Part shown: positions 1,137-22,048 of the stretch, piece after piece | Position numbering within the stretch: the first letter of the stretch is position 1 | Layout: the number at the start of each line of letters is the position of its first letter | IMG/VR virus record: IMGVR_UViG_2778261460_000002 | DNA: 38,593 bases | Strand: one strand, 5' to 3' | Origin: a virus | Lineage: Duplodnaviria > Heunggongvirae > Uroviricota > Caudoviricetes | The notes under the pieces: model-generated | Database searches by the model: none | Told to the model about the DNA's origin: nothing | What the model saw: the letters and a program-made list of their open reading frames with translations, nothing else | Translations under genes and position numbers: made by a program

Positions 1137-2813
1137 CTAAGCAACATGCAGTTCATCGTTGGCGGAAGTTGCTGCTTTGCGCTCTTGCTCAATCGCCAGT
1201 GACTCTCTATATTCTTTCGCTTCCGCAAACATTGTCCATTGTGCGTTGATGTTCATATCTTCAATAACAGACTTAATTTCTTTAATATTTACGTTGAAAA
1301 ACTCTTTTCGTGAGTTAATTTTATTGACCTGTTTTTCGTTGAAGACTTTATGCAGATGATTTTCTAATGATGGTGCATCATCACTATAAATCATCGCATG
1401 AACATCGAACGAAAAAGGAACACTAGCATCACCGAGTTCACGAACACGATCAAGTGGTTCAAGGCGGCGTGTCATTCCAATTTTATATACATCTTCGCCA
1501 AATGAGCCAATATTACTAATTATATAAACGTGGCCTGATCTAGTTTGTTGAGCCATAGAAATAGCTCGTTGGTTTTTAGCTTCAGCTTCTTCATATTTTA
1601 ACTGTAGTTCAGCTATTTTTTGCTCTAAAGCTAAGCGTTGTTCTTCATTTGCAAGCATAAGCTCTTTTGTTGCTTTATTTATAGCTTGCTGAATAGCTTT
1701 CTCTTCTTTTTCAGCTTCTTTTATCGCTTTTTCATACTCCCTACGAGCTCTTTCCTCTTCACGAAGTTGTTCTTTAATCCTTCTTTGCTCTTCTTTTTCT
1801 TCGAGCATAATTTCATTAACTGCAACTCCCCATTTTAGCTCGTTGAGTCGAGCTTGAAGATAGATGTCACTTATTTTTGCGGACCTAAAGGCAGAACCAT
1901 TGTAATTTACAAGTTGAAACGCATCTTTTATCTCTTGGGAAAGTTTTCCAAAATTGTTGTGTTTGACTTTTGATAAAATACTGTCAACTCTTCCATTGAA
2001 GGCATCTAAAACAAAGTTGATAGCAGTATTACGCCTGTTTTGTTCAACATAATCACACGAAGCAGCTTTATTAGTTTTTATTAATGATTTTGTTAACTCC
2101 CTGGCTTTTTGTAATTCCTTACCTGCATCTGTAAACTCATAATTTTCTGCCAATTCATCGAGAACGCTACGGTTAGGGATGATCCATTCATCACCATAAC
2201 CTTCAATTTTATTTTTCATTGATTTGGCAACTGCTTCATATTTTTCTGCAAACTCTTTAGCTTCATATGCTGAACCAGCAATCTCTTTTGCTCTTTCTTC
2301 TGCATCGGAAATAATTTTCACTGCATTGTCATTAGCATTTGAGATCAGCTCATTTGCTTTACTATTGGCATTATCAAGACGTTCTTTAGCTTTCAGGCGT
2401 GCATCGCGAGCGTCTTTAGTAATTGCTATAGCTTCGCTATTAGCGTTGCTTATTTTTATCTGAGCTTGATAATTTGCTTCGTTTACTGTCTTAGCAGCCT
2501 TTATTTGGGCTTCTTCTATTTTTTGCCTGGCTATTGAGTCTGCATTTTTTATCTTATTCTCTGCTTCCATCACTGCGCTGTGCAATTCTACGTATTGCCA
2601 TAATGGCGCAGCTCGTCCTTCAAGCTCTGATAGATCTCGTACAGTCTGTGCTAATTCTTCTTGATTTTCTTTCAGTTGGTTGGAAAGGGCTATGTTGTTA
2701 GCTGTCAAGGTATTTATAGCCGCTTTATGTTTTTTGCTTTGCTTAAATAATATTACAGCTAGAATGGGGGCGAGAAATGCTAATAAGAATATAACGATGG
2801 AAAATGAATTCAT
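1137..2813 (-). CDS. Membrane-anchored coiled-coil protein with C-terminal T5orf172 (GIY-YIG-like) domain; DUF4041-type architecture; candidate anti-phage/moron gene
   Basis: 558-aa ORF. N-terminal hydrophobic helix (SIVIFLLAFLAPILAVILF), long E/K/A/Q-rich coiled-coil region, C-terminal segment GHVYIISNIGSFGEDVYKIGMTRRLEPLDRVRELG typical of T5orf172. AT-rich relative to the phage backbone. Start codon 20 nt downstream of the cI stop with a GGA Shine-Dalgarno, same strand as cI and int. Confidence 0.7.
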   Translation of the reverse strand: MNSFSIVIFLLAFLAPILAVILFKQSKKHKAAINTLTANNIALSNQLKENQEELAQTVRDLSELEGRAAPLWQYVELHSAVMEAENKIKNADSIARQKIEEAQIKAAKTVNEANYQAQIKISNANSEAIAITKDARDARLKAKERLDNANSKANELISNANDNAVKIISDAEERAKEIAGSAYEAKEFAEKYEAVAKSMKNKIEGYGDEWIIPNRSVLDELAENYEFTDAGKELQKARELTKSLIKTNKAASCDYVEQNRRNTAINFVLDAFNGRVDSILSKVKHNNFGKLSQEIKDAFQLVNYNGSAFRSAKISDIYLQARLNELKWGVAVNEIMLEEKEEQRRIKEQLREEERARREYEKAIKEAEKEEKAIQQAINKATKELMLANEEQRLALEQKIAELQLKYEEAEAKNQRAISMAQQTRSGHVYIISNIGSFGEDVYKIGMTRRLEPLDRVRELGDASVPFSFDVHAMIYSDDAPSLENHLHKVFNEKQVNKINSRKEFFNVNIKEIKSVIEDMNINAQWTMFAEAKEYRESLAIEQERKAATSANDELHVA

Positions 2814-2833: not shown

Positions 2834-3430
2834 TTAATTTGAAACTATTGTACTTCTTATACAAGCAACTACTTCAATATCAGAAAATGCACATTCAAAG
2901 CTATTCTCTGTACTTGTAATTTTAATCATACCTTTTGGAAGCTTTGTGATTTTTCGAATGGAATAGGTTCCGTCGATGTTGATTAACCAGTGCCCATCAA
3001 GTACTTCAGAAAATTTTTGATCACAAATGTATGTGACGAGCCCATCCTGAATAACAATTGGTGATGAAAGATTTGCAGGAAGAAATGATGAATCGAAGAC
3101 ATATGAACCATCTTCAATCATTTTGCCTGCGGTAAGGCGAAACTTGGCAAGCTCTTCTGTAGCTGCTGTCAGCGAGCTTTGCTTAAGGCCTTGCCCGGTG
3201 GTTAACCATTTCAGTGAGGTTCCTGTTTCAAGAGCACATTGGATTATCCAGTCTGCAGGAAACGTATCCCGCAAATACCTGTTCGCCAGAGTGCTTTTTG
3301 ATACTTCCAAGTGATCAGCTAAAGCCTGTCGTGTCGTAAAGCCATAAGCTTCGACTAATCGCTCAATCGCAGCCTTACCACCTTTATTGGGATTTATTTT
3401 GATCTCATTTGGGTACTTTGATGTTGACAT
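2834..3430 (-). CDS. cI: Immunity repressor, phage 186 CI-like
   Basis: 198-aa ORF divergent from the apl/cII lytic operon; N-terminal helix-turn-helix-like region, size and position match 186 CI. Confidence 0.7.
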   Translation of the reverse strand: MSTSKYPNEIKINPNKGGKAAIERLVEAYGFTTRQALADHLEVSKSTLANRYLRDTFPADWIIQCALETGTSLKWLTTGQGLKQSSLTAATEELAKFRLTAGKMIEDGSYVFDSSFLPANLSSPIVIQDGLVTYICDQKFSEVLDGHWLINIDGTYSIRKITKLPKGMIKITSTENSFECAFSDIEVVACIRSTIVSN

Positions 3431-3477
3431 ATCTCTTTTGCGATCCTAGTATCAATTTTGTCCCCATTTGGGTACTT
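3406..3477 (+). repeat. Two exact copies of CATTTGGGTACTT (3406-3418 and 3465-3477) flanking the lytic promoter; candidate repressor/Apl operator elements
   Basis: 13-bp direct repeat read directly from the sequence, 59 bp apart, bracketing the -35/-10 of the putative pR. Confidence 0.4.
3424..3452 (+). promoter_or_regulatory. Putative early lytic promoter pR: -35 TTGACA (3424-3429), 17-bp spacer, -10 TAGTAT (3447-3452)
   Basis: Perfect -35 hexamer with canonical spacing to a near-consensus -10, upstream of apl and oriented toward it. Confidence 0.55.
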
Positions 3478-3525
3478 GTCACGATTACTACAGGCTCACC
3501 ACAAGCCAATAGGAGATGTTGCATC

Positions 3526-3747
3526 ATGACCCCTAACATTTCAATAACTCTGAATACGCCACATGTCACAATTGAGCGTTATAGCGAACTTACTGGTCTT
3601 TCTATCGACACCATCAACGATATGCTGGCTGATGGTCGCATCCCTCGCCATCGCCTTCGGAAAGACAAGAAAAGAGAAAAGGTAATGATCAACCTTGCTG
3701 CTCTTACCGTTGATGCACTTACTGATTGCAATGTTGTATTCAACTAG
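3526..3747 (+). CDS. apl: Apl/Cox-like excisionase and transcriptional regulator
   Basis: 73-aa product from the internal ATG at 3526 (AGGAG-like RBS upstream); small basic protein in first position of the rightward early operon as in 186. Confidence 0.6.
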
Positions 3748-3779
3748 TTCCATTTTGGGATACATCAGGGGTGTCGACT

Positions 3780-4289
3780 ATGTTTGATTACCAAGTTTCC
3801 AAACATCCACATTTTGACGAAGCCTGTCGTGCATTCGCACTGCGCCACAACCTGGTGCAACTGGCAGAACGTGCAGGCATGAATGTACAGATTCTGCGGA
3901 ACAAGCTGAACCCAGCTCAACCTCATTTATTAACCGCACCAGAAATCTGGTTGCTTACCGATCTGACTGAAGATTCAACGCTGGTAGATGGCTTTCTGGC
4001 ACAGATTCACTGCCTGCCATGTGTACCGATTAATGAGGTGGCAAAAGAGAAACTGCCGCATTATGTCATGAGTGCAACCGCAGAGATCGGGCGTGTTGCT
4101 GCAGGTGCGGTATCCGGCGATGTAAAAACCAGTGCAGGTCGTCGTGATGCTATCAGCAGCATTAACTCTGTAACACGGCTGATGGCGCTGGCCGCTGTTT
4201 CATTGCAGGCCCGTTTACAGGCTAATCCTGCGATGGCGAGTGCAGTTGATACCGTTACTGGCCTCGGTGCTTCATTCGGTTTGCTGTGA
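3780..4289 (+). CDS. cII: CII-like lysogeny establishment activator (phage 186 type)
   Basis: 169-aa product from ATG 3780 ([10 protein letters not shown]...); position after apl and size match 186 CII. Confidence 0.6.
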
Positions 4290-5330: not shown

Positions 5331-6184
5331 GCACCATCTTGAAATGGGCGGGAAATAAAACCGCCGTAATGTCCGAACTGAAAAAACATCTTCCTGCTGG
5401 TCCGCGACTAGTTGAACCTTTCGCGGGTTCCTGTGCTGTGATGATGGAGACGGATTATCCCTGCTATCTGGTTGCGGATATTAATCCTGATTTAATCAAC
5501 CTCTATAAAAAGGTTGCCGCTGATTGTGAATCGTTTATATCTCGCGCCAAAGTTTTATTTGAGATCGCAAACAGGGAGGTGGCTTATTACAACATAAGGC
5601 AGGAGTTTAATTACTCAACTGAAATTACTGATTTCATGAAAGCGGTATATTTCCTGTATCTCAATCGTCACGGTTACCGTGGGTTATGTCGCTATAACAA
5701 GAGCGGGCATTTCAACATTCCCTACGGTAATTATAAAAATCCGTATTTCCCTGAAAAAGAAATTCGCGCTTTTGCAGAAAAAGCCCAGCGAGCAACGTTT
5801 ATCTGCGCCAGCTTTGATGAAACGCTGGCGATGTTGAAGGCGGGGGATGTGGTGTATTGCGATCCGCCTTATGACGGTACGTTTTCCGGCTATCACGCTG
5901 ACGGCTTTACTGAAGATGACCAGTATCACCTGGCATCCGTTCTTGAACATCGGTCATCAGAAGGACATCCGGTCATTGTTTCTAACAGTGACACATCCCT
6001 GATCCGTTCGCTGTATCGCAATTTTACTCACCACTATATCAAGGTAAAACGCAGCATCGGCGTAGCAGCTGGTGAGAGTAAATCAGCAACAGAAATCATT
6101 GCTGTTTCCGGGCCGCGCTGCTGGGTGGGATTTGATTATTCGCGTGGCGTGGATAGTTCTGCCGTGTACGGAGTACGTGCATGA
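5327..6184 (+). CDS. dam: DNA adenine methyltransferase (Dam-like, N6-adenine, probable GATC specificity)
   Basis: 285-aa product from ATG 5327 ([11 protein letters not shown]...); N-terminal AdoMet-binding region (EPFAGSCAV) and catalytic DPPY motif; ATGA overlap with the upstream stop. Confidence 0.75.
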
Positions 6185-8595
6185 GCCATGCCGATATGAG
6201 CAACTGCTGCGGCTTTAACGAGGCTGCCGCATCGTTCTCATGGAACAGTCCGAAAAAGGCCATTAACCCTTATCTGGACCCGGCGGAAGTTGCGCCGGTT
6301 TCTGCGCTTTCAAACCTGATCACTCTGTACGCTGCCGATAACGAGCAGGAACAACTGCGCCGCGAGGCACTGAGTGATCAGGTCTGGGAGCGTTATTTCT
6401 TTAATGAATCCCGTGATCCTGTCCAACGCGAAATAGAGCAGGATAAGCTCATTAGCCGGGCAAAGTTGGCGCATGAGCAGCAGCGTTTTAACCCGGACAT
6501 GGTCATTCTGGCAGACGTCAGCGCCCAGCCCTCCCATATCAGCAAGCCGCTGATGCAACGTATTGAATACTTCAGCAGCCTGGGCAGGCCAAAGGCTTAT
6601 TCCCGCTATTTACGTGAGACGATTAAGCCATGTCTGGAACGACTGGAGCATGTACGCGACAGCCAGCTATCTGCATCTTTTCGTTTTATGGCAAGCCATG
6701 TAGGGCTGGACGGCCTGCTGATTCTGCCTGAAATGAGTCAGGATCAGGTGAAACGCCTGTCTACCCTTGTCGCTGCGCATATGAGCATGTGCCTTGATGC
6801 AGCTTGTGGTGATTTGTATGCCACCGATGACGTTAAGCCAGAAGAAATCCGCAAGACATGGGAAAAGGTGGCAGCGGAAACCCTGCGTCTGGATGTCATC
6901 CCGCCTGCGTTTGAGCAACTCCGTCGGAAAAGAAACCGCCGTAAACCCGTGCCCTATGAACTCATTCCGGGTTCGCTGGCGCGTATGTTGTGCGCCGACT
7001 GGTGGTACCGGAAATTATGGAAAATGCGTTGCGAATGGCGGGAAGAGCAGTTGCGTGCTGTCTGCCTGGTCAGCAAAAAAGCATCTCCCTATGTCAGCTA
7101 TGAAGCCGTGATGCATAAACGTGAGCAGCGCCGCAAGTCACTGGAGTTTTTCCGTTCTCATGAACTGGTGAACGAAGAGGGCGACACGCTGGATATGGAA
7201 GACGTGGTAAACGCCAGCAGCAGCAACCCGGCGCACCGCCGCAATGAGATGATGGCCTGTGTTAAAGGTCTGGAGCTTATCGCGGAAATGCGCGGTGACT
7301 GCGCCGTTTTCTACACCATTACCTGTCCGTCACGTTTCCATTCCACGCTCAATAACGGCAGACCAAACCCAACCTGGACAAATGCGACGGTAAGACAAAG
7401 CAGCGATTATCTGGTCGGCATGTTTGCTGCATTTCGTAAGGCGATGCACAAAGCCGGGTTGCGCTGGTATGGCGTGCGGGTGGCTGAGCCGCATCATGAC
7501 GGTACAGTTCACTGGCACCTGTTGTGTTTCATGCGCAAAAAAGACCGCCGCGCCATTACTGCATTGTTGCGTAAGTTTGCCATCCGTGAAGACCGCGAGG
7601 AACTGGGTAATAACACTGGTCCACGCTTTAAATCTGAGCTGATAAACCCGCGCAAAGGAACGCCGACAAGCTACATCGCGAAATACATCAGTAAGAACAT
7701 TGACGGGCGTGGTCTGGCTGGCGAGATCAGCAAGGAAACGGGTAAATCCCTGCGTGATAACGCTGAATACGTTAATGCCTGGGCGTCTCTGCATCGTGTT
7801 CAGCAATTCCGCTTCTTTGGTATTCCGGGACGTCAGGCTTACCGTGAACTTCGCTTGCTGGCTGGTCAGGCGGCAAGGCAACAGGGTGACAAAAAAGCAG
7901 GTGCGCCGGTACTGGATAACCCGCGTCTTGATGCCATTCTGGCTGCTGCTGATGCTGGTTGTTTTGCCACCTACATCATGAAGCAGGGCGGCGTACTGGT
8001 TCCCCGCAAATATCACCTCATCAGAACCGCTTATGAAATCAACGAAGAGCCAACCGCCTATGGCGATCACGGTATTCGTATTTATGGCATCTGGTCACCC
8101 ATTGCAGAGGGCAAGATCTGCACTCATGCAGTGAAGTGGAAAATGGTTCGTAAGGCCGTTGACGTTCAGGAGGCGGCAGCCGACCAGGGCGCTTGCGCCC
8201 CTTGGACTCGTGGCAATAACTGTCCCCTTGCTGAAAATTTGAACCAACAGGAGAAAGATAAATCAGCTGATGGAGACACCAGAACGGACATTACCCGCAT
8301 GGATGACAAGGAGTTGCACGATTACCTGCACAGTATGAGCAAAAAAGAGCGCCGGGAACTGGCAGCAAGGTTACGCCAGGTGAAGCCGAAAAGGCGTAAA
8401 GACTACAAACAGCGAATTACAGATCATCAGCATCAGCAGCTCGTCTATGAACTGAAGTCCAGAGGATTTGATGGCAGCGAGAAAGAGGTCGATTTACTCC
8501 TTCGCGGTGGCAGTATTCCGTCAGGAGCAGGCCTGCGTATTTTCTATCGGAACCAGCGTTTGCAGGAAGATGATAAGTGGCGGAACCTGTATTAA
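6181..8595 (+). CDS. Replication initiation protein A (P2 gpA / 186 replication endonuclease-like)
   Basis: 804-aa ORF after the early operon; size and position match P2 A; ATGA overlap with dam stop. Confidence 0.8.
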
Positions 8596-8689
8596 TTACG
8601 CGGGTTAACAATTCGTGCTCTTAATAATACCAGGCATATCAGGCTGATGAACGTAAAAAAACGTTTTACATCAGTAAGATTATTATATA

Positions 8690-8705
8690 CTGTAAATATA
8701 AACAG
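8690..8705 (+). promoter_or_regulatory. LexA (SOS) box CTGTAAATATAAACAG
   Basis: Exact match to the CTGT-N8-ACAG LexA operator consensus, about 45 nt upstream of the tum-like start, inside an AT-rich promoter-like region. Confidence 0.7.
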
Positions 8706-8748
8706 TGTTTATGCATACAGTATTGTTTGTGGTGTCATAGGAGGAAAG

Positions 8749-8937
8749 ATGCAGGACTATTTTTTGGAGTCTTTGAAGCTCCAGCGCATTGATTTTTTTC
8801 TTAAGCTTGTAGCGGCTAGTGAGTGTAGTGATGAAGAGAAGGGGCTGGCTCTGCAGTGGGTTTCTGAATTGACTGATGAACTCATGGCAAAAATCAGAAG
8901 CCACGAATACAACCGCTCAATGGATGTCATCAGCTGA
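8749..8937 (+). CDS. Small SOS-regulated protein, candidate Tum-like antirepressor
   Basis: 62-aa product from ATG 8749 with AGGAGG RBS (8739-8744); directly downstream of the LexA box; position matches the 186 tum locus. Confidence 0.45.
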   Translation: MQDYFLESLKLQRIDFFLKLVAASECSDEEKGLALQWVSELTDELMAKIRSHEYNRSMDVIS

Positions 8938-8947
8938 GGTGACTTTT

Positions 8948-9181
8948 ATGCGCATTGAAATAATGATCGATAAAGAGCAGAAGATTAGCCAGTCTACCCT
9001 GGACGCTCTGGAGTCCGAGCTTTACCGCAACCTGCAACCCATCTATCCCAAGACAGCTATCCGCATCCGTAAAGGGTCGGCAAACGGCGTTGAGCTGAGT
9101 GGCTTAAAGCTTGATGAAGACAAAAAGCGGGTGATGGAAATTATGCAGCAGGTTTGGGAAGACGACAGATGGCTGCACTAA
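8948..9181 (+). CDS. DinI-family protein
   Basis: 77-aa product MRIEIMIDKEQK...IMQQVWEDDRWLH aligns by eye with E. coli DinI (MRIEVTIAK ... ILQETWE ... W); second gene in the LexA-boxed operon. Confidence 0.65.
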   Translation: MRIEIMIDKEQKISQSTLDALESELYRNLQPIYPKTAIRIRKGSANGVELSGLKLDEDKKRVMEIMQQVWEDDRWLH

Positions 9182-9254
9182 GGAACGTTCCTGATGTAAG
9201 AACTTGATTCTGACGTCAGCAAGGTTGAACAACGAGAGTAGCGAGGCGTTAGCC

Positions 9255-9515
9255 ATGGGTAAAAAAGACAGTAATCACCAGATTATTTATCGGGGCCAGG
9301 TGCTGGAACGGTTTACCCCTGGCGGCTGGGTCTTCTTTCAACGCCCAAAGGAGTGTGGCGGAGGTTTTTAGTTGGGCCGCACCTATGAAGACTGCTTCTG
9401 GCTTGAGCTGGAATTCCCCGTTTCGCTATATGACGGCCTGGAGTTTTTGATGGAAGTCACCAGGGTAGAGCAGAGAAGTGATGAGGTTGACGCGAATTAT
9501 TCCCTGTTTGATTAA
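9255..9515 (+). pseudogene. Small ORF interrupted by an in-frame amber codon (TAG at 9369-9371); probable pseudogene
   Basis: ATG at 9255 opens 38 codons, TAG, then the same frame stays open for 47 more codons to TAA at 9513-9515. Confidence 0.3.
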
Positions 9516-9534
9516 AAATGTATTAGCTTATAAT
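9507..9534 (+). promoter_or_regulatory. Putative sigma70 promoter for the 203-aa gene (-35 TTTGAT/TTGATT, -10 TATAAT at 9529-9534)
   Basis: Perfect -10 hexamer with a plausible -35 at 15-16 bp spacing, about 30 nt upstream of the ATG at 9564. Confidence 0.4.
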
Positions 9535-9563
9535 GGAATACTATTTTTGCAGGTGGGGGCGCA

Positions 9564-10175
9564 ATGGATTTAGTCTTTAAAATTCTGGCTTCGTTGGGTG
9601 GGGTGTCTTTTGTTGCATCTGGCATATTTGTTTGGATCGGGAAAGTTTATTTAGAAAGATATAAGTCGCGGCTAAACAAAGATATTGCTGAATTTCAATC
9701 ACAACTGAGTGCAACTAATGAAAGAATAAAGGCTAAGTTAGACAATTCTGTTTATGTAACGAAAGCGTATTTTGATAAGGAGTTATCAGCATATAGTCTC
9801 ATTTGGAATTCGATGTTTGAAACCAGAGAAAGCGTGCTTAAGCTGAGGCCTGCGCTGGATCATTTTGACCCCAACGAACCATTTGAAGAGAGAAAATTTA
9901 GAAGGTTGAAAGTTTTTTTCGATGCATTTAATACTTTTGTTACAAGTGTTGAGTCTAACAAACCGTTCATCTCACCAGAGGTTTATATAATCTTGGACCG
10001 TTTCCGGAAGGAATGCCTTTCAGAGTCAATATCGTTTCAGCATGGCGATCCAGAATTTGACTGGCAAAATTATTGGAAAGAGGCAGAGTTGAACCGTACA
10101 ACCATCACCAAGCTTTTTGATGAGACGTGTGATGCAATTCGAGACAGGATGCACACATTAACTGTGGTTACGTAG
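9564..10175 (+). CDS. Single-pass membrane protein of unknown function; accessory cargo in the old/tin-equivalent position
   Basis: 203-aa ORF with N-terminal hydrophobic helix (ILASLGGVSFVASGIFVWIG) and a soluble domain with no recognisable motifs; AT-rich; own promoter and terminator. Confidence 0.6.
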   Translation: MDLVFKILASLGGVSFVASGIFVWIGKVYLERYKSRLNKDIAEFQSQLSATNERIKAKLDNSVYVTKAYFDKELSAYSLIWNSMFETRESVLKLRPALDHFDPNEPFEERKFRRLKVFFDAFNTFVTSVESNKPFISPEVYIILDRFRKECLSESISFQHGDPEFDWQNYWKEAELNRTTITKLFDETCDAIRDRMHTLTVVT

Positions 10176-10266
10176 TTTTCCAAAAAGTCTCGATGCCCGC
10201 TTTGGCGATTGTGCATGTCTATGCCGCATGAATCCGCATGATCGTTTGAGGATCGTTTTAGCTGAG

Positions 10267-10290
10267 GCCCGCTAGGAATGGCGGGCTTTT
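10267..10290 (+). terminator. Rho-independent terminator (gcccgc-loop-gcgggc-tttt)
   Basis: Perfect 6-bp GC stem with 8-nt loop followed by TTTT, about 90 nt downstream of the 203-aa gene. Confidence 0.55.
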
Positions 10291-10335
10291 GCTTATGTCA
10301 TGCAGGCGCATGAAAACCACTACATAAAGCGGGCA

Positions 10336-10354
10336 GGCGTGGCGGGGATACGAG
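10336..10354. other. Probable cos site (cohesive-end region) GGCGTGGCGGGGATACGAG
   Basis: Matches from memory the start of the P2/186 cohesive end (GGCG[A/T]GGCGGGGA...), with a GCGCGCT tract after it as in P2; lies between the replication side and the portal gene. Not verified by alignment. Confidence 0.45.
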
Positions 10355-10367
10355 CGCGCGCTCATGG

Positions 10368-10396
10368 TTGAATTAATGAAATTATGGTGTTAAATA
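10368..10396 (+). promoter_or_regulatory. Putative sigma70 promoter for the 232-aa gene: -35 TTGAAT (10368-10373), 17-bp spacer, extended -10 TGtTAAATA (10388-10396)
   Basis: Read directly from the sequence; about 70 nt upstream of the ATG at 10465, which has a GGGAGGAG RBS. Confidence 0.45.
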
Positions 10397-10464
10397 GGCT
10401 AGCTTTTTAAGTCGTGAATATTCAATTTTTCAACTCATTTTTTTCATAGGGAGGAGTAATTGAC

Positions 10465-11163
10465 ATGGTTATGTTAGTGGATGACTGTCCACGATGTGGA
10501 TCACAAAAAATAGCGTTTGATGTTAATGGGCTGAATTGCACTAGGGTTTACAATGCATTGGGCGGGGGTAAAACATACGAGTACGAGGTCTATTGTGTTT
10601 GCCGAGAGTGTCATAAAACGACAATGTTTCTTTGCAGACCTTTAACGAAAAATAAAACTTTAGATGGCTATAATTGGAAAAGTGGAATATTCGGCTTAAA
10701 GGAAGTTGCAGAGGTTGTTAGGCCTATATCACCGGCAGACTTAGCAGTAGAGGAGCCACCAGAGTTCTTACCTGAGCATATCAATAGTGCATATGAGGAA
10801 GGGGCGAAATGTTTGGCTATAGGTTGTTATAATGCAGCAGCAACCATGTTTAGGCTTTGCCTTGATTATGCCACAAAAGGACTTCTTCCTGATGGGGAGC
10901 AAGGGCCTGCGCAAAAAATAAGGAGAAGCCTAGGGTTAAGAATGGAGTGGTTATTTGATAATCATCTACTGCCTGAAGCTTTAAGGGAACTAGCTGAATG
11001 CGTTAAAGATGACGGAAATGATGGAGCGCATGAAGGTATTTTGGATAAAGCTGCTGCTGAGGATCTTGAAGATTTTACCTATCTTTTTTTAGAACGGCTT
11101 TACACTGAACCTCAACGCCTTATCGAAGCCAAGACAAGGCGTGAACAAAGAAGAAACAAATAA
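10465..11163 (+). CDS. Zinc-ribbon protein with DUF4145/HEPN-like C-terminal domain; accessory cargo between cos and the portal gene
   Basis: 232-aa ORF; N-terminal CPRC-x35-CRECH Cys cluster; C-terminal helical region with GNDGAHEG resembling the RN..AHG motif of DUF4145 as recalled (arginine replaced). AT-rich, own promoter. Confidence 0.55.
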   Translation: MVMLVDDCPRCGSQKIAFDVNGLNCTRVYNALGGGKTYEYEVYCVCRECHKTTMFLCRPLTKNKTLDGYNWKSGIFGLKEVAEVVRPISPADLAVEEPPEFLPEHINSAYEEGAKCLAIGCYNAAATMFRLCLDYATKGLLPDGEQGPAQKIRRSLGLRMEWLFDNHLLPEALRELAECVKDDGNDGAHEGILDKAAAEDLEDFTYLFLERLYTEPQRLIEAKTRREQRRNK

Positions 11164-19944: not shown

Positions 19945-20796
19945 TTATTTCATTTCGTGTGGCATATTTATGGCTTTAATTTTTTCGTGGTAATGATTAA
20001 ACTCAATATGAGCATTGGTAAAATTAGATTCAAATGTATTCATTAAATTGGAATATAATGATTCATATGATAAGGATACTTTTTTTCCATTTTTTTCTGC
20101 AGTTGTGCTAATGTACCTATGTACTGCAGAAAAAAGAAAATGACCTCTAAGCCACTTTCTGTATTCTATCGATTTTGATTTGAAAGATGAATCGATGTTA
20201 TCTGGTTCCACACCTAATTTTTCAATGATGGTGTTTTTGTAACTCGTGATTTTTTGCTCGCAAATTTCATTTGATTTTCTAGATTTCATGAAACGATCTG
20301 CACTGTCACCAATAACTGAAATGCCTTTTCTATAAATATGATTGTATATATCAAGTTTTATTAGGGGTTCCATTTTGGTATAAAAGTCTTCTGTCCAAGA
20401 ATCGACGTTGACATCGTTCATTATCTTTTGAGGTAATTTTCCGAGAGTTTTTATTGCCTTATATATGCCTGTTTTGTCAATAAACGTGTTTTCGATGGAG
20501 TGCCCATAAGTTTTTACAATGCGACTATCAGCGTTTTCCTCATTTTCAAATGTAGTGAAGTCTGCATCACATGCAATTATAATTTGAAGATCTTCATCAG
20601 TAACTCTATCAATATATTTTTTTAATTCTTCACAGCCGCCAACATCTTTGATTTCAACCTTTAATGAACTAGCTTTATTAAAGATGATTTCCCAAAAGCA
20701 AATATCATCTGGGCCTTCAACATAAACCATGGCTTCAGCTTGGTAAAATAAATTCATTACATTTTCTGCTTCGGCAGAATAATGGAAATCATCCAT
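19945..20796 (-). CDS. DUF4435/Toprim-like nuclease, PARIS AriB-like (OLD-family Toprim fold)
   Basis: Open frame extends to 20880 (311 aa). The ATG at 20796 overlaps the upstream stop as ATGGATGA, so 283 aa is more likely. Toprim-like acidic motifs YVEGPDD and IIACDADF. Very AT-rich. Confidence 0.55.
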   Translation of the reverse strand: MDDFHYSAEAENVMNLFYQAEAMVYVEGPDDICFWEIIFNKASSLKVEIKDVGGCEELKKYIDRVTDEDLQIIIACDADFTTFENEENADSRIVKTYGHSIENTFIDKTGIYKAIKTLGKLPQKIMNDVNVDSWTEDFYTKMEPLIKLDIYNHIYRKGISVIGDSADRFMKSRKSNEICEQKITSYKNTIIEKLGVEPDNIDSSFKSKSIEYRKWLRGHFLFSAVHRYISTTAEKNGKKVSLSYESLYSNLMNTFESNFTNAHIEFNHYHEKIKAINMPHEMK

Positions 20797-22048
20797 GAAC
20801 CAATTTCTCCATATCAAAGATTGCATTTCGATATTTAGAAGCCACTTCTGGTGAATGCGTAGCGGCGATAATTTGCGCATTAGGATTAAGTTGTTTGATT
20901 GCAGGTATTATTTTTCGTTGCCATGCAATATGTAGCGATAATTCTGGTTCATCAGTAAGATAGATGAAAGGTTTGTTTTGCTGTAGCAAAGTTTCAATAA
21001 AAAGAATTAATAGCTGTTTTTCACCAGACGATAAATTACTATGGCTAATCGGCCCATGCTCGTTTTCTATTACTAGCTCACCGGAGATAAAATTAAATTT
21101 TTTATCGGTTATGAACTCATGTAATGTTTCTAAAAATAGATTTATAGGAAGAAATATGTTTTTTATTTTCTCCTCGGATTTTAAAGACATCTTTATAATT
21201 CTTTGCGTCTTTCGTAATGCCTCAAATGATCTGTAATCTACATTTAAAATATTTCTGTTATTTTTTTCTGCAAGTCGTAATTCTTCAAATGTTTTGGCAA
21301 TAGATTCAACGTGAAAGTTAATCTTCTTTCTGACATCACTATCAAAAGCTCCAAGCTGAGAATATGCAGCTATTAAATTTCTACGTTCTTTTTCTTTATC
21401 AAAAGAAAAGTTAAATGTGTCATCGATACCATCTTCTTTACTATAAAGAATAGAAGCAAGAACCTCTTTCTGTAATATTGCAGAAACATCACGAGCTCTT
21501 TGTGATAAATAAAGTTGATATTTTGTTAGGTTCTGCAATAATTGTTCTAATCGGTAATCAACAGGGTTGATTAATTTTGAGCCATATTTGTCTCTGATTT
21601 CAAAATCTTCACCGCTTCTAAGTCGGTAAACTGATAGAGAAGATAAAGCAACTAATTTATCTAACTCTAATTTAAGTTTTTCAACGTCTTCCTGATATTT
21701 TCTCCTCATATAAATAGGTAGTCTACGATCTTCAAAGGATCTGATAATATATTTCTTTCTAGAAATTGTATATTCAAACGTAGGCAAAGCTTTAGTTATG
21801 TCAAATTTACTCACAACTTTTATTGTTTTAGTTTTGCTTCCTTCTTTTATTTTTATTGTTACATTATCAAAACTATTCTCATTTAGTGATTCGAGTTCTA
21901 ATGCCAGAACTGAGTGAAGAATATTCATAAAGGTTGTTTTACCGGTCCCATTTCGACCAATAATAATATTTACATCTTCATTAAATGAACATGATGCATT
22001 TAGTCTTCCCCAAAAACCTTCAATCTTGACACTAGATAATCTAAACAT
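20789..22048 (-). CDS. ABC-type ATPase (AAA_15/AAA_21-like), PARIS AriA-like
   Basis: 419 aa; Walker A GRNGTGKTT, Walker B-like IYLTDEPE, H-loop AATHSPEV; translationally coupled to the downstream DUF4435 gene. Confidence 0.6.
   Translation of the reverse strand: MFRLSSVKIEGFWGRLNASCSFNEDVNIIIGRNGTGKTTFMNILHSVLALELESLNENSFDNVTIKIKEGSKTKTIKVVSKFDITKALPTFEYTISRKKYIIRSFEDRRLPIYMRRKYQEDVEKLKLELDKLVALSSLSVYRLRSGEDFEIRDKYGSKLINPVDYRLEQLLQNLTKYQLYLSQRARDVSAILQKEVLASILYSKEDGIDDTFNFSFDKEKERRNLIAAYSQLGAFDSDVRKKINFHVESIAKTFEELRLAEKNNRNILNVDYRSFEALRKTQRIIKMSLKSEEKIKNIFLPINLFLETLHEFITDKKFNFISGELVIENEHGPISHSNLSSGEKQLLILFIETLLQQNKPFIYLTDEPELSLHIAWQRKIIPAIKQLNPNAQIIAATHSPEVASKYRNAIFDMEKLVHG

What the first reader, a model, noticed from the sequence alone, without database searches (positions are those of the whole stretch)
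8690..9181. LexA-boxed operon encoding a Tum-like small protein and a DinI homologue
A perfect CTGT-N8-ACAG LexA box lies about 45 nt upstream of a two-gene operon at the position where 186 carries its SOS-inducible antirepressor tum. The repressor here is 186 CI-like rather than LexA-like self-cleaving, so SOS induction probably works through this module. The second gene is clearly DinI-like, which could also modulate RecA during induction.
Basis: partly seen in the sequence, partly recalled or inferred. Interest (0 to 1): 0.4.

Follow-up and report, generated by a model that had tools for sequence, protein, structure and literature searches.

The report
Split tum SOS induction operon (tumA-tumB)
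This is the ordinary DNA-damage switch of a 186/Fels-2-type prophage: a LexA-repressed promoter drives a small antirepressor gene (tumA) and a DinI-like gene (tumB), an arrangement already described for phages Fels-2 and PSP3 and present in about a fifth of complete E. coli genomes.

Summary
A strong LexA box (TACTGTAAATATAAACAGTG, 8688-8707, 17/20 to consensus) is the only one in the window and overlaps the -10 of a p95-like promoter just downstream of replication gene A. It precedes two genes: tumA (8749-8937, 62 aa) and tumB (8948-9181, 77 aa).

TumB is a DinI-family protein, 41% identical to residues 71-145 of 186 Tum. TumA gives no BLASTP match to Tum, but a profile of its family matches Tum residues 3-45 (hhalign 94.9%, E 4.7e-8). 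The two genes together are therefore a split tum.

The same module occurs in Fels-2 (TumA 97% identical, identical LexA box). PSP3 has the same arrangement, annotated tumA/tumB. The literature states that the upstream gene is the antirepressor and that lexA-null lethality in Salmonella LT2 depends on Fels-2. The window's repressor is 186-CI-like with no self-cleavage domain.

Diverged TumA relatives always keep the LexA box but often lack the DinI gene, so TumA is the core part and TumB an accessory.

One mildly interesting point: a nearly invariant TumA is paired with many divergent CI types.

Novelty: already known. Interest: low.

The parts
8665..8670 (+). Putative -35 hexamer TTTACA of the p95-like SOS promoter
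   Evidence: Read. It lies 17 nt upstream of TACTGT, mirroring the annotated 186 p95 layout (TTCACA, 18 nt, TACTGT). It is unchanged in 79 of the 80 related loci, the exception being L004, whose upstream region is replaced. It was not picked up by the generic promoter scan because TACTGT matches TATAAT at only 3/6.
8688..8707 (+). LexA (SOS) box TACTGTAAATATAAACAGTG, overlapping the putative -10 (TACTGT, 8688-8693)
   Evidence: 17/20 to consensus, the only site in the window, 0 of 100 shuffles. Identical in Fels-2. The exact 20-mer is present in 67 of 82 tumA-bearing sequences compared (the 80 IMG/VR loci plus Fels-2 and the window), and the CTGT-N8-ACAG arms are intact in 78 of 82. An equivalent TACTG[T/G]-N8-ACAGT box sits 15-21 nt before the start codon in four diverged TumA lineages whose flanks are otherwise unalignable, and also in 186 and PSP3.
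8749..8937 (+). tumA: 62-aa predicted antirepressor, homologue of the N-terminal part of 186 Tum
   Evidence: Fels-2 STM2728 is 96.8% identical. hhalign against 186 Tum: 94.9%, E 4.7e-8, residues 3-45. HMM hit to the 186 tum ORF at 35.6 bits. pN/pS 0.03. AF2 predicts a two-helix hairpin, pLDDT 86.9. Matches phrog_698, with no Pfam or NCBIfam model.
8926..8943 (+). Small hairpin GTCATCAGCTGAGGTGAC spanning the tumA stop codon and the tumB Shine-Dalgarno, followed by TTTTAT
   Evidence: Reported by the terminator-like scan. Predicted in most Fels-2-group loci at about -12 kcal/mol in a 52-nt context, but disrupted in 3 variants and absent from PSP3, 186 and L090/L091. A role in translational coupling or attenuation is only a possibility.
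8948..9181 (+). tumB: 77-aa DinI-family protein, counterpart of the C-terminal half of 186 Tum
   Evidence: Pfam DinI E 6.8e-24. 41% identical to 186 Tum residues 71-145. 91% identical to PSP3 TumB. E. coli DinI 1ghh E 2.9e-9. Below the NCBIfam equivalog cutoff for chromosomal DinI, 53 against 111 bits. pN/pS 0.17.
2834..3430 (-). cI: 186-type immunity repressor, the presumed target of TumA
   Evidence: Pfam Phage_CI_repr (E 8e-32) plus Phage_CI_C (E 4e-27), with no S24 peptidase domain. 33% identical to 186 CI and 40% to Fels-2 CI. Cox/Apl-like and CII (CP76) genes lie alongside at 3409-4289.

Best explanation
The region is the SOS induction operon of a Fels-2/186-type (Peduoviridae) prophage. 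It is a tum gene split into tumA and tumB.

In a healthy lysogen, host LexA binds the box at 8688-8707. The box overlaps the -10 of a p95-like promoter and keeps the operon silent. DNA damage activates RecA, LexA cleaves itself, and tumA-tumB is transcribed.

TumA is a 62-aa two-helix hairpin. It binds the 186-type CI repressor, which cannot self-cleave, and stops CI from holding its operators. pR then fires (Apl, CII, replication) and the prophage enters lytic growth.

TumB is a DinI-like protein. It is an accessory that most likely acts on RecA filaments or tunes the strength of induction, and it is not required for antirepression.

What is shown here: the anatomy, the homologies, the conservation of the LexA box across the family, and purifying selection on both genes. 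What is inferred from Fels-2, PSP3 and 186: LexA binding, the TumA-CI interaction, and the role of TumB.
For: 1. The LexA box is strong, unique in the window, and identical to that of Fels-2.

2. Box-gene linkage is conserved across the family. 186, PSP3 and four TumA lineages at 33-48% identity all carry TACTG[T/G]-N8-ACAGT 15-21 nt before the start codon, in otherwise unrelated upstream DNA.

3. TumA is homologous to Tum residues 3-45. TumB is homologous to Tum residues 71-145.

4. Context is constant. The module always follows gene A in prophages with a Phage_CI_repr plus Phage_CI_C repressor.

5. Three diverged lineages carry LexA-boxed tumA with no DinI gene at all, so TumA is the indispensable part.

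6. Literature. 186 Tum is a LexA-controlled antirepressor that inhibits or sequesters CI (PMC7708051). Fels-2 and PSP3 have split tum, with the antirepressor in the upstream gene in PSP3 (PMC3121763). PSP3 tumA is annotated 'UV induction of prophage'. All lexA-null survivors in LT2 had lost Fels-2 (Bunny et al. 2002, as summarised in PMC12626290).

7. tumA is under very strong purifying selection, pN/pS 0.03.
Against: Nothing was tested experimentally for this prophage.

The window's CI is only 40% identical to Fels-2 CI (N-terminal domain 64%, C-terminal domain 28%). Recognition of this CI by a Fels-2-type TumA is therefore an extrapolation.

The PSP3 statement that the upstream gene is the antirepressor is a personal communication cited second-hand. 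PSP3 TumA is also not detectably homologous to the window TumA.

The promoter hexamers are assigned by analogy with 186 p95; the generic scan did not call them.

The primary paper on Fels-2 and lexA (Bunny 2002) could not be read.
Confidence: 0.85

Rival explanations
1. The operon is SOS-controlled, but antirepression needs TumB or a TumA-TumB complex. The two polypeptides would together reconstitute the fused 186 Tum, and TumA alone would be inactive.
For: 186 makes a single 146-aa protein containing both parts. tumA and tumB are only 10 nt apart, and the tumB Shine-Dalgarno overlaps the tumA stop codon, which suggests coupled synthesis. TumB is present in all 80 near-identical loci, one of which (L046) ends within the gene.
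Against: Three diverged TumA lineages keep the LexA box and the 186-type CI but have no DinI gene; tumA is followed directly by a convergent ogr gene. The literature assigns the antirepressor activity to the upstream gene in PSP3. TumB is 91% identical between PSP3 and the window, whereas their TumA proteins give no detectable alignment and their CI proteins are only about 35% identical. TumB therefore does not track the repressor.
Confidence: 0.08
2. The module is LexA-regulated but is not the induction trigger for this prophage. Its TumA would be a conserved backbone gene that does not recognise this CI type. It would then act only in trans on other co-resident prophages, or the operon would mainly modulate RecA and SOS through TumB.
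For: TumA is 98-100% identical across loci whose CI differs greatly (N-terminal domain 64-100%, C-terminal domain 28-99% identical to the window's). It is not obvious that one TumA can neutralise all of these. Trans-acting antirepressor crosstalk is known in Salmonella. Some E. coli genomes carry 2-3 copies of the module.
Against: pN/pS of 0.03 shows that tumA is maintained by selection in every lineage examined. No other LexA box or antirepressor candidate exists in the window. CI lacks a self-cleavage domain, so no alternative SOS route is visible. Within the group the CI N-terminal domain keeps long invariant stretches that could serve as a common docking site.
Confidence: 0.06
3. The LexA-like palindrome is a chance AT-rich sequence and the two ORFs are constitutively or otherwise expressed morons unrelated to induction.
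For: The bare CTGT-N8-ACAG pattern is expected about 0.56 times per window by chance. The region is AT-rich.
Against: The 20-mer match never occurred in shuffles. The box is retained at the same place in every family member examined despite unalignable flanks. Homology to 186 Tum, whose p95 promoter is LexA-regulated, is significant.
Confidence: 0.01

Closest known systems
Fels-2 prophage of Salmonella LT2: STM2728 and STM2726.1 (split tum)
   Same: Same position after gene A. The -35, spacer and LexA box are identical. TumA is 96.8% and TumB 84% identical, with the same 10-nt junction. Fels-2 is the prophage responsible for lexA-null lethality in LT2. It is described as having tum split in two.
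   Different: The CI repressor is only 40% identical overall (N-terminal domain 64%, C-terminal domain 28%). The cargo genes downstream of tumB differ. The host here is most likely E. coli.
Coliphage 186 Tum (p95 SOS operon)
   Same: A LexA box overlaps a TACTGT -10, downstream of gene A. The Tum N-terminal part (residues 3-45) is homologous to TumA and the C-terminal part (residues 71-145) to TumB. The repressor is the same type, and the mechanism is antirepression rather than cleavage.
   Different: In 186 the two parts are fused into one 146-aa protein, with extra internal starts that also yield a free DinI-like fragment. Pairwise identity to TumA is too low for BLASTP. The box lies 18 nt from the start codon, against 41 nt here. 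186 has orf97 downstream where this prophage has different cargo.
Phage PSP3 tumA/tumB
   Same: The same split architecture and LexA box. TumB is 91% identical. tumA is annotated as needed for UV induction, and the literature places the antirepressor in the upstream gene.
   Different: PSP3 TumA (60 aa) shows no significant similarity to the window TumA. Only a short C-x5-[KR]-LAL motif is shared by eye. PSP3 CI is a longer protein of 286 aa.
Gifsy-1/2/3 dinI-antirepressor operons (GfoA, GftA, GfhA)
   Same: A LexA-repressed operon that encodes a DinI homologue and a small antirepressor acting on a non-cleavable repressor.
   Different: The gene order is reversed (dinI first). The phage backbone is lambdoid, and the antirepressor and repressor families are unrelated. 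No sequence comparison was made here beyond what the literature states.

Membership tests
Tum/TumA antirepressor of 186-like phages | Sequence homology to the N-terminal (non-DinI) part of 186 Tum | tested here: met
   hhalign of the TumA family profile against 186 Tum: 94.9% probability, E 4.7e-8, residues 3-45 of both. hmmsearch: 35.6 bits, with the next-best ORF at 4.6 bits. Pairwise BLASTP was negative.
Tum/TumA antirepressor of 186-like phages | Gene lies downstream of replication gene A in a P2/186-like genome, under a promoter that carries a LexA box | tested here: met
   gpA occupies 6181-8595, the box 8688-8707, and tumA starts at 8749. The layout is the same in 186, PSP3, Fels-2 and four diverged lineages.
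Tum/TumA antirepressor of 186-like phages | Cognate repressor is 186-CI type without a RecA-stimulated self-cleavage domain | tested here: met
   Pfam finds Phage_CI_repr plus Phage_CI_C and no Peptidase_S24 hit at E<=0.01. 33% identical to 186 CI.
Tum/TumA antirepressor of 186-like phages | Protein binds CI and prevents operator binding; expression induces the prophage | not testable with these tools
   Known for 186 Tum and reported for PSP3 TumA. Needs genetics or biochemistry for this prophage.
DinI family (PF06183) | Matches the family profile above the curated threshold over the full domain | tested here: met
   84.4 bits against a cutoff of 24.2, profile positions 1-63 of 63. Aligns end to end with E. 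coli DinI 1ghh.
DinI family (PF06183) | Orthologue (equivalog) of chromosomal DinI | tested here: not met
   NCBIfam NF007893 scores 53.4 bits against a cutoff of 111. TumB is a phage paralogue, closest to PSP3 TumB (91%).
DinI family (PF06183) | Binds RecA filaments through the acidic C-terminal helix | not testable with these tools
   The C-terminal ..QQVWEDDRW aligns with DinI ..QETWESADDW.
E. coli-type SOS (LexA) box | Palindrome CTGT-N8-ACAG with an AT-rich spacer, close to the 20-mer consensus, placed over the promoter | tested here: met
   17/20 to consensus, unique in the window, 0 of 100 shuffles. It overlaps the TACTGT -10 that corresponds to the annotated 186 p95 -10.
E. coli-type SOS (LexA) box | Bound by LexA; transcription derepressed on DNA damage | not testable with these tools
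   Support is indirect only: Fels-2, with the identical box, is the prophage lost by all surviving lexA-null mutants of LT2.

The most novel reading that the evidence does not exclude
One almost invariant TumA (98-100% identical, pN/pS 0.03) may act as a universal antirepressor for a whole set of heteroimmune Fels-2-like prophages. Their CI repressors share 64-84% identity in the N-terminal DNA-binding domain but only 28-43% in the C-terminal oligomerisation domain. TumA would dock on a conserved surface of the CI N-terminal domain. Immunity specificity and induction would then be uncoupled, and co-resident prophages of different immunity (up to 3 copies of the module per E. coli genome) would be induced in trans by each other's TumA. 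A second possibility is that the LexA-controlled transcript reads through into the variable cargo or defence genes downstream (9564-11163), making them SOS-inducible, as orf97 is in 186.
Probability: 0.4. Interest if true: 0.4.

Novelty: already known. Interest (0 to 1): 0.15.

Why it matters
It explains how this prophage, whose repressor cannot cleave itself, senses DNA damage, and it predicts induction by SOS-inducing antibiotics. The module is very common, occurring in 1126 of 5426 complete E. coli genomes. Yet TumA has no Pfam or NCBIfam model and is labelled 'hypothetical protein', or wrongly 'levan regulatory protein', in public annotation. A curated TumA family would improve prophage annotation. 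Scientifically the mechanism is already established for 186 and described for Fels-2 and PSP3, so this copy adds no new principle.

Tried and rejected
- **Pairwise BLASTP.** TumA against 186 Tum and against PSP3 TumA, and PSP3 TumA against 186 Tum, all gave no alignment. Profile methods resolved this for 186 but not for PSP3 (probability 7%).
- **Representative-library phmmer with TumA**. It gave 67 hits, almost all short, and none was a TumA-DinI fusion. The window-type TumA is apparently never fused.
- **Fold search of the TumA model against the PDB**. Only generic helical hairpins were returned (best E 0.44), which is uninformative. No solved relative was found by sequence either.
- **The search for related loci with alignment A1 on genome contigs.** This failed for lack of a conserved stretch. 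Four encoding-contig look-ups replaced it.
- **Co-variation idea.** I asked whether the invariant TumA W37 pairs with CI W61. It was rejected: CI of diverged lineages whose TumA keeps W37 has I or L at that position.
- **Junction hairpin 8926-8943 as a conserved regulatory element.** It is not conserved outside the Fels-2 group and shows no compensatory changes.
- **A second LexA box.** CAGTGTTTATGCATACAGTA (8702-8721) matches 15/20 but has G in place of the critical C of CTGT. Most relatives have GTGG there. It was judged non-functional or a remnant.
- **Rfam scan of 8400-9700.** Nothing significant was found.
- **Minus-strand ORFs 8683-8904 and 8757-8930, and the minus-strand promoter-like hit at 8711-8682.** These were treated as by-products of the AT-rich palindrome and of tumA coding.
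- **Literature.** Bunny et al. 2002 (PMC151935) is not held. A full-text search for 'tumA/tumB' returned only unrelated papers. The Salmonella SOS regulon paper uses a strain that lacks Fels-2.

Full report
**What is in the sequence**

The window is a P2/186-like (Peduoviridae, Fels-2-like) prophage. Reading left to right it has:
- an integrase;
- a 186-type cI at 2834-3430(-);
- a Cox/Apl-like gene, a CII (CP76) gene and a Dam-like methylase;
- a gpA replication endonuclease at 6181-8595;
- the region of the finding;
- two cargo genes;
- the convergent portal and terminase genes.

The CTGT-N8-ACAG motif is present exactly once, at 8690-8705. On its own that pattern is not significant, because 45 of 100 shuffles contain one. 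The full 20-mer TACTGTAAATATAAACAGTG (8688-8707) matches the LexA consensus at 17/20. It is the only such site in the window and never appeared in 100 shuffles.

A TTTACA hexamer (8665-8670) lies 17 nt upstream of TACTGT (8688-8693). This is the layout annotated for the LexA-controlled p95 promoter of 186: TTCACA, 18 nt, TACTGT, with the LexA site beginning at the -10. The generic promoter scan did not call it, so this assignment rests on analogy.

Two ORFs follow on the + strand:
- 8749-8937, 62 aa, preceded by AGGAGG;
- 8948-9181, 77 aa, with GAGG overlapping the upstream stop codon.

**What the two genes are**

ORF2 is a DinI-family protein. The evidence is Pfam PF06183 at 84 bits and E. 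coli DinI 1ghh at E 2.9e-9. It is 41% identical, without gaps, to residues 71-145 of the 146-aa 186 Tum protein and 91% identical to PSP3 TumB. It falls below the NCBIfam equivalog cutoff for chromosomal DinI, so it is a phage paralogue.

ORF1 has no Pfam or NCBIfam model, matches phrog_698, and gives no BLASTP alignment to 186 Tum. To test the 'Tum-like' claim properly I did the following:
- I collected diverse relatives with an exhaustive phmmer search and aligned 27 of them at 33-74% identity (A1).
- Profile comparison with 186 Tum gave 94.9% probability and E 4.7e-8, aligning residues 3-45 of both proteins.
- An HMM of the family scored the 186 tum ORF at 35.6 bits, while every other ORF of 186, PSP3, Fels-2 and the window scored 4.6 bits or less.

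ORF1 is therefore the counterpart of the N-terminal part of Tum and ORF2 of its C-terminal part. The pair is a split tum.

AlphaFold2 predicts ORF1 as a two-helix hairpin (helices 2-23 and 28-61, pLDDT 86.9), with the nearly invariant Cys26 in the turn. The fold is too simple for a fold search to be informative.

ORF1 is clearly a coding gene under strong constraint. Across 24 alleles there are 17 synonymous and only 2 nonsynonymous variants, pN/pS 0.03. ORF2 gives 0.17.

**This is a known arrangement**

The same module occurs in Fels-2 of Salmonella LT2. STM2728 is 96.8% identical to ORF1, and the -35, spacer and LexA box are identical.

In PSP3 the two genes are annotated tumA ('similar to 5' end 186 tum; UV induction of prophage') and tumB ('similar to dinI and 3' end of 186 tum').

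Lemire et al. [quoted passage not shown] They cite Bunny, Liu and Roth 2002 and a personal communication from G. Christie (PMC3121763).

Bunny et al. found that all surviving lexA-null mutants of LT2 had lost Fels-2, as summarised in PMC12626290. I could not read the primary paper.

For 186 itself, Tum is an anti-CI factor expressed when the LexA-regulated p95 promoter is derepressed (PMC7708051).

The module is very common. It occurs in 67 phage records, in more than 590 IMG/VR contigs, and in 1126 of 5426 complete E. coli genomes. RefSeq still names TumA 'hypothetical protein' in those genomes.

**Comparative evidence for the mechanism**

I compared 80 IMG/VR loci carrying a 98-100% identical TumA, together with Fels-2 and the window (82 sequences in all). 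The exact LexA 20-mer is present in 67, and 78 keep the CTGT-N8-ACAG arms. The 20 nt just downstream of the box are visibly more variable. Because these loci are closely related, this is weak evidence on its own.

Stronger evidence comes from distant relatives. Four TumA lineages at 33-48% identity lie after gene A in prophages with a Phage_CI_repr plus Phage_CI_C repressor. Each has TACTG[T/G]-N8-ACAGT 15-21 nt before the start codon, within otherwise unalignable DNA. 186 and PSP3 have the same.

Three of those four lineages have no DinI gene at all; tumA is followed directly by a convergent ogr gene. The conserved unit is therefore a LexA box plus tumA, and tumB is an accessory. This agrees with the assignment of antirepressor activity to the upstream gene.

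The window's CI has no S24 self-cleavage domain, so no lambda-like induction route is visible.

**An unresolved point worth noting**

Among the near-identical loci the phage backbone is almost invariant: gpA 97-98%, CII 93-100%, TumA 98-100%. CI is highly variable:
- relative to the window, the CI N-terminal domain is 64-84% identical in the other immunity types;
- the CI C-terminal domain is only 28-43% identical in those types;
- only about nine loci share the window's CI type.

CI of 186 and PSP3, whose Tum or TumA is of a different type, is 41-42% identical in the N-terminal domain and 26-27% in the C-terminal domain.

If TumA neutralises all these repressors, it most plausibly docks on the conserved N-terminal DNA-binding domain. 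Long invariant stretches exist there, for example SKST.A.R..RD.FPA.W.IQCA.ETG. That would also fit a protein that blocks operator binding.

This is inference. A simple residue co-variation idea (TumA W37 with CI W61) failed when checked on diverged lineages. The alternative, that TumA does not act on every CI type, is kept as a rival at low probability.

**Verdict**

The one refinement is that the DinI homologue is the second half of Tum rather than an extra gene.

The best explanation is a LexA-repressed tumA-tumB operon in which TumA is the antirepressor of the 186-type CI and TumB is a DinI-like modulator. My confidence is about 0.85.

It is an already known system, with near-identical copies in the studied prophage Fels-2, so interest is low. 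Residual value lies in the missing curated family for TumA and in the question of how one TumA serves many CI types.

Noticed in passing
window 1137-2813 (-): A 558-aa protein between the integrase and cI matches the anti-phage defence protein PD-Lambda-1 (PADLOC E 4.7e-120). It is a defence cargo gene inserted in the int-cI interval.
   Followed up: partly
window 19945-22048 (-): Two overlapping minus-strand genes inside the late (structural) region match AriA (419 aa, E 5.7e-40) and AriB (311 aa, E 3e-24). This is a PARIS-like defence pair.
   Followed up: partly
window 9256-11163 (+): Directly downstream of tumB, with no intrinsic terminator detected, lie three features. The first is a pseudogene with an internal stop (9256-9515; annotated as such in an E. 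coli genome whose 701-nt tumAB segment is 99.7% identical). The second is a 203-aa protein of unknown function (9564-10175, phrog_26391). The third is a 232-aa DUF4145 protein (10465-11163) with a weak PD-T7-4 match. They occupy the position of 186 orf97 and could be read through from the LexA-controlled promoter. Fels-2 carries different genes here.
   Followed up: partly
window 2834-3430 (-) and CI genes of loci L004-L083: CI is the hypervariable gene of an otherwise 93-100% identical backbone. Its C-terminal (oligomerisation) domain diverges much more (28-43% identity) than its N-terminal DNA-binding domain (64-84%). Several loci have long CI variants of 308-318 aa.
   Followed up: partly
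window 8702-8727: The roughly 20 nt after the LexA box are a local variation hotspot among otherwise near-identical loci. In the window this stretch forms a degenerate second box, CAGTGTTTATGCATACAGTA (15/20, with G replacing the critical C of CTGT). It also places the box 41 nt from the start codon, against 15-21 nt in other family members.
   Followed up: partly
loci L004, L031, L075, L076 (upstream of tumA): Four of 80 related loci lack an intact LexA box. In L004 the upstream region is replaced by unrelated GC-rich DNA. The other three have single changes in the CTGT or ACAG arms (CTGC, GCAG, ATAG). These could be derepressed or defective prophages, or assembly errors.
   Followed up: no
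loci L084-L089: Diverged 186-like prophages carry a LexA-boxed tumA alone, followed immediately by a convergent ogr gene and the portal gene. They have no DinI-like gene and no cargo.
   Followed up: partly
window 8749-8937 (database annotation): TumA homologues are labelled 'levan regulatory protein' or 'levan regulatory domain protein' in UniRef and in some Klebsiella phage records. They are labelled 'hypothetical protein' in RefSeq. The levan label appears to be a propagated misannotation.
   Followed up: no
window 8926-8943: The hairpin GTCATCAGCTGAGGTGAC covers the tumA stop codon and the tumB Shine-Dalgarno and is followed by TTTTAT. It is present in most Fels-2-group loci but is not conserved in PSP3, 186 or L090/L091.
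   Followed up: yes
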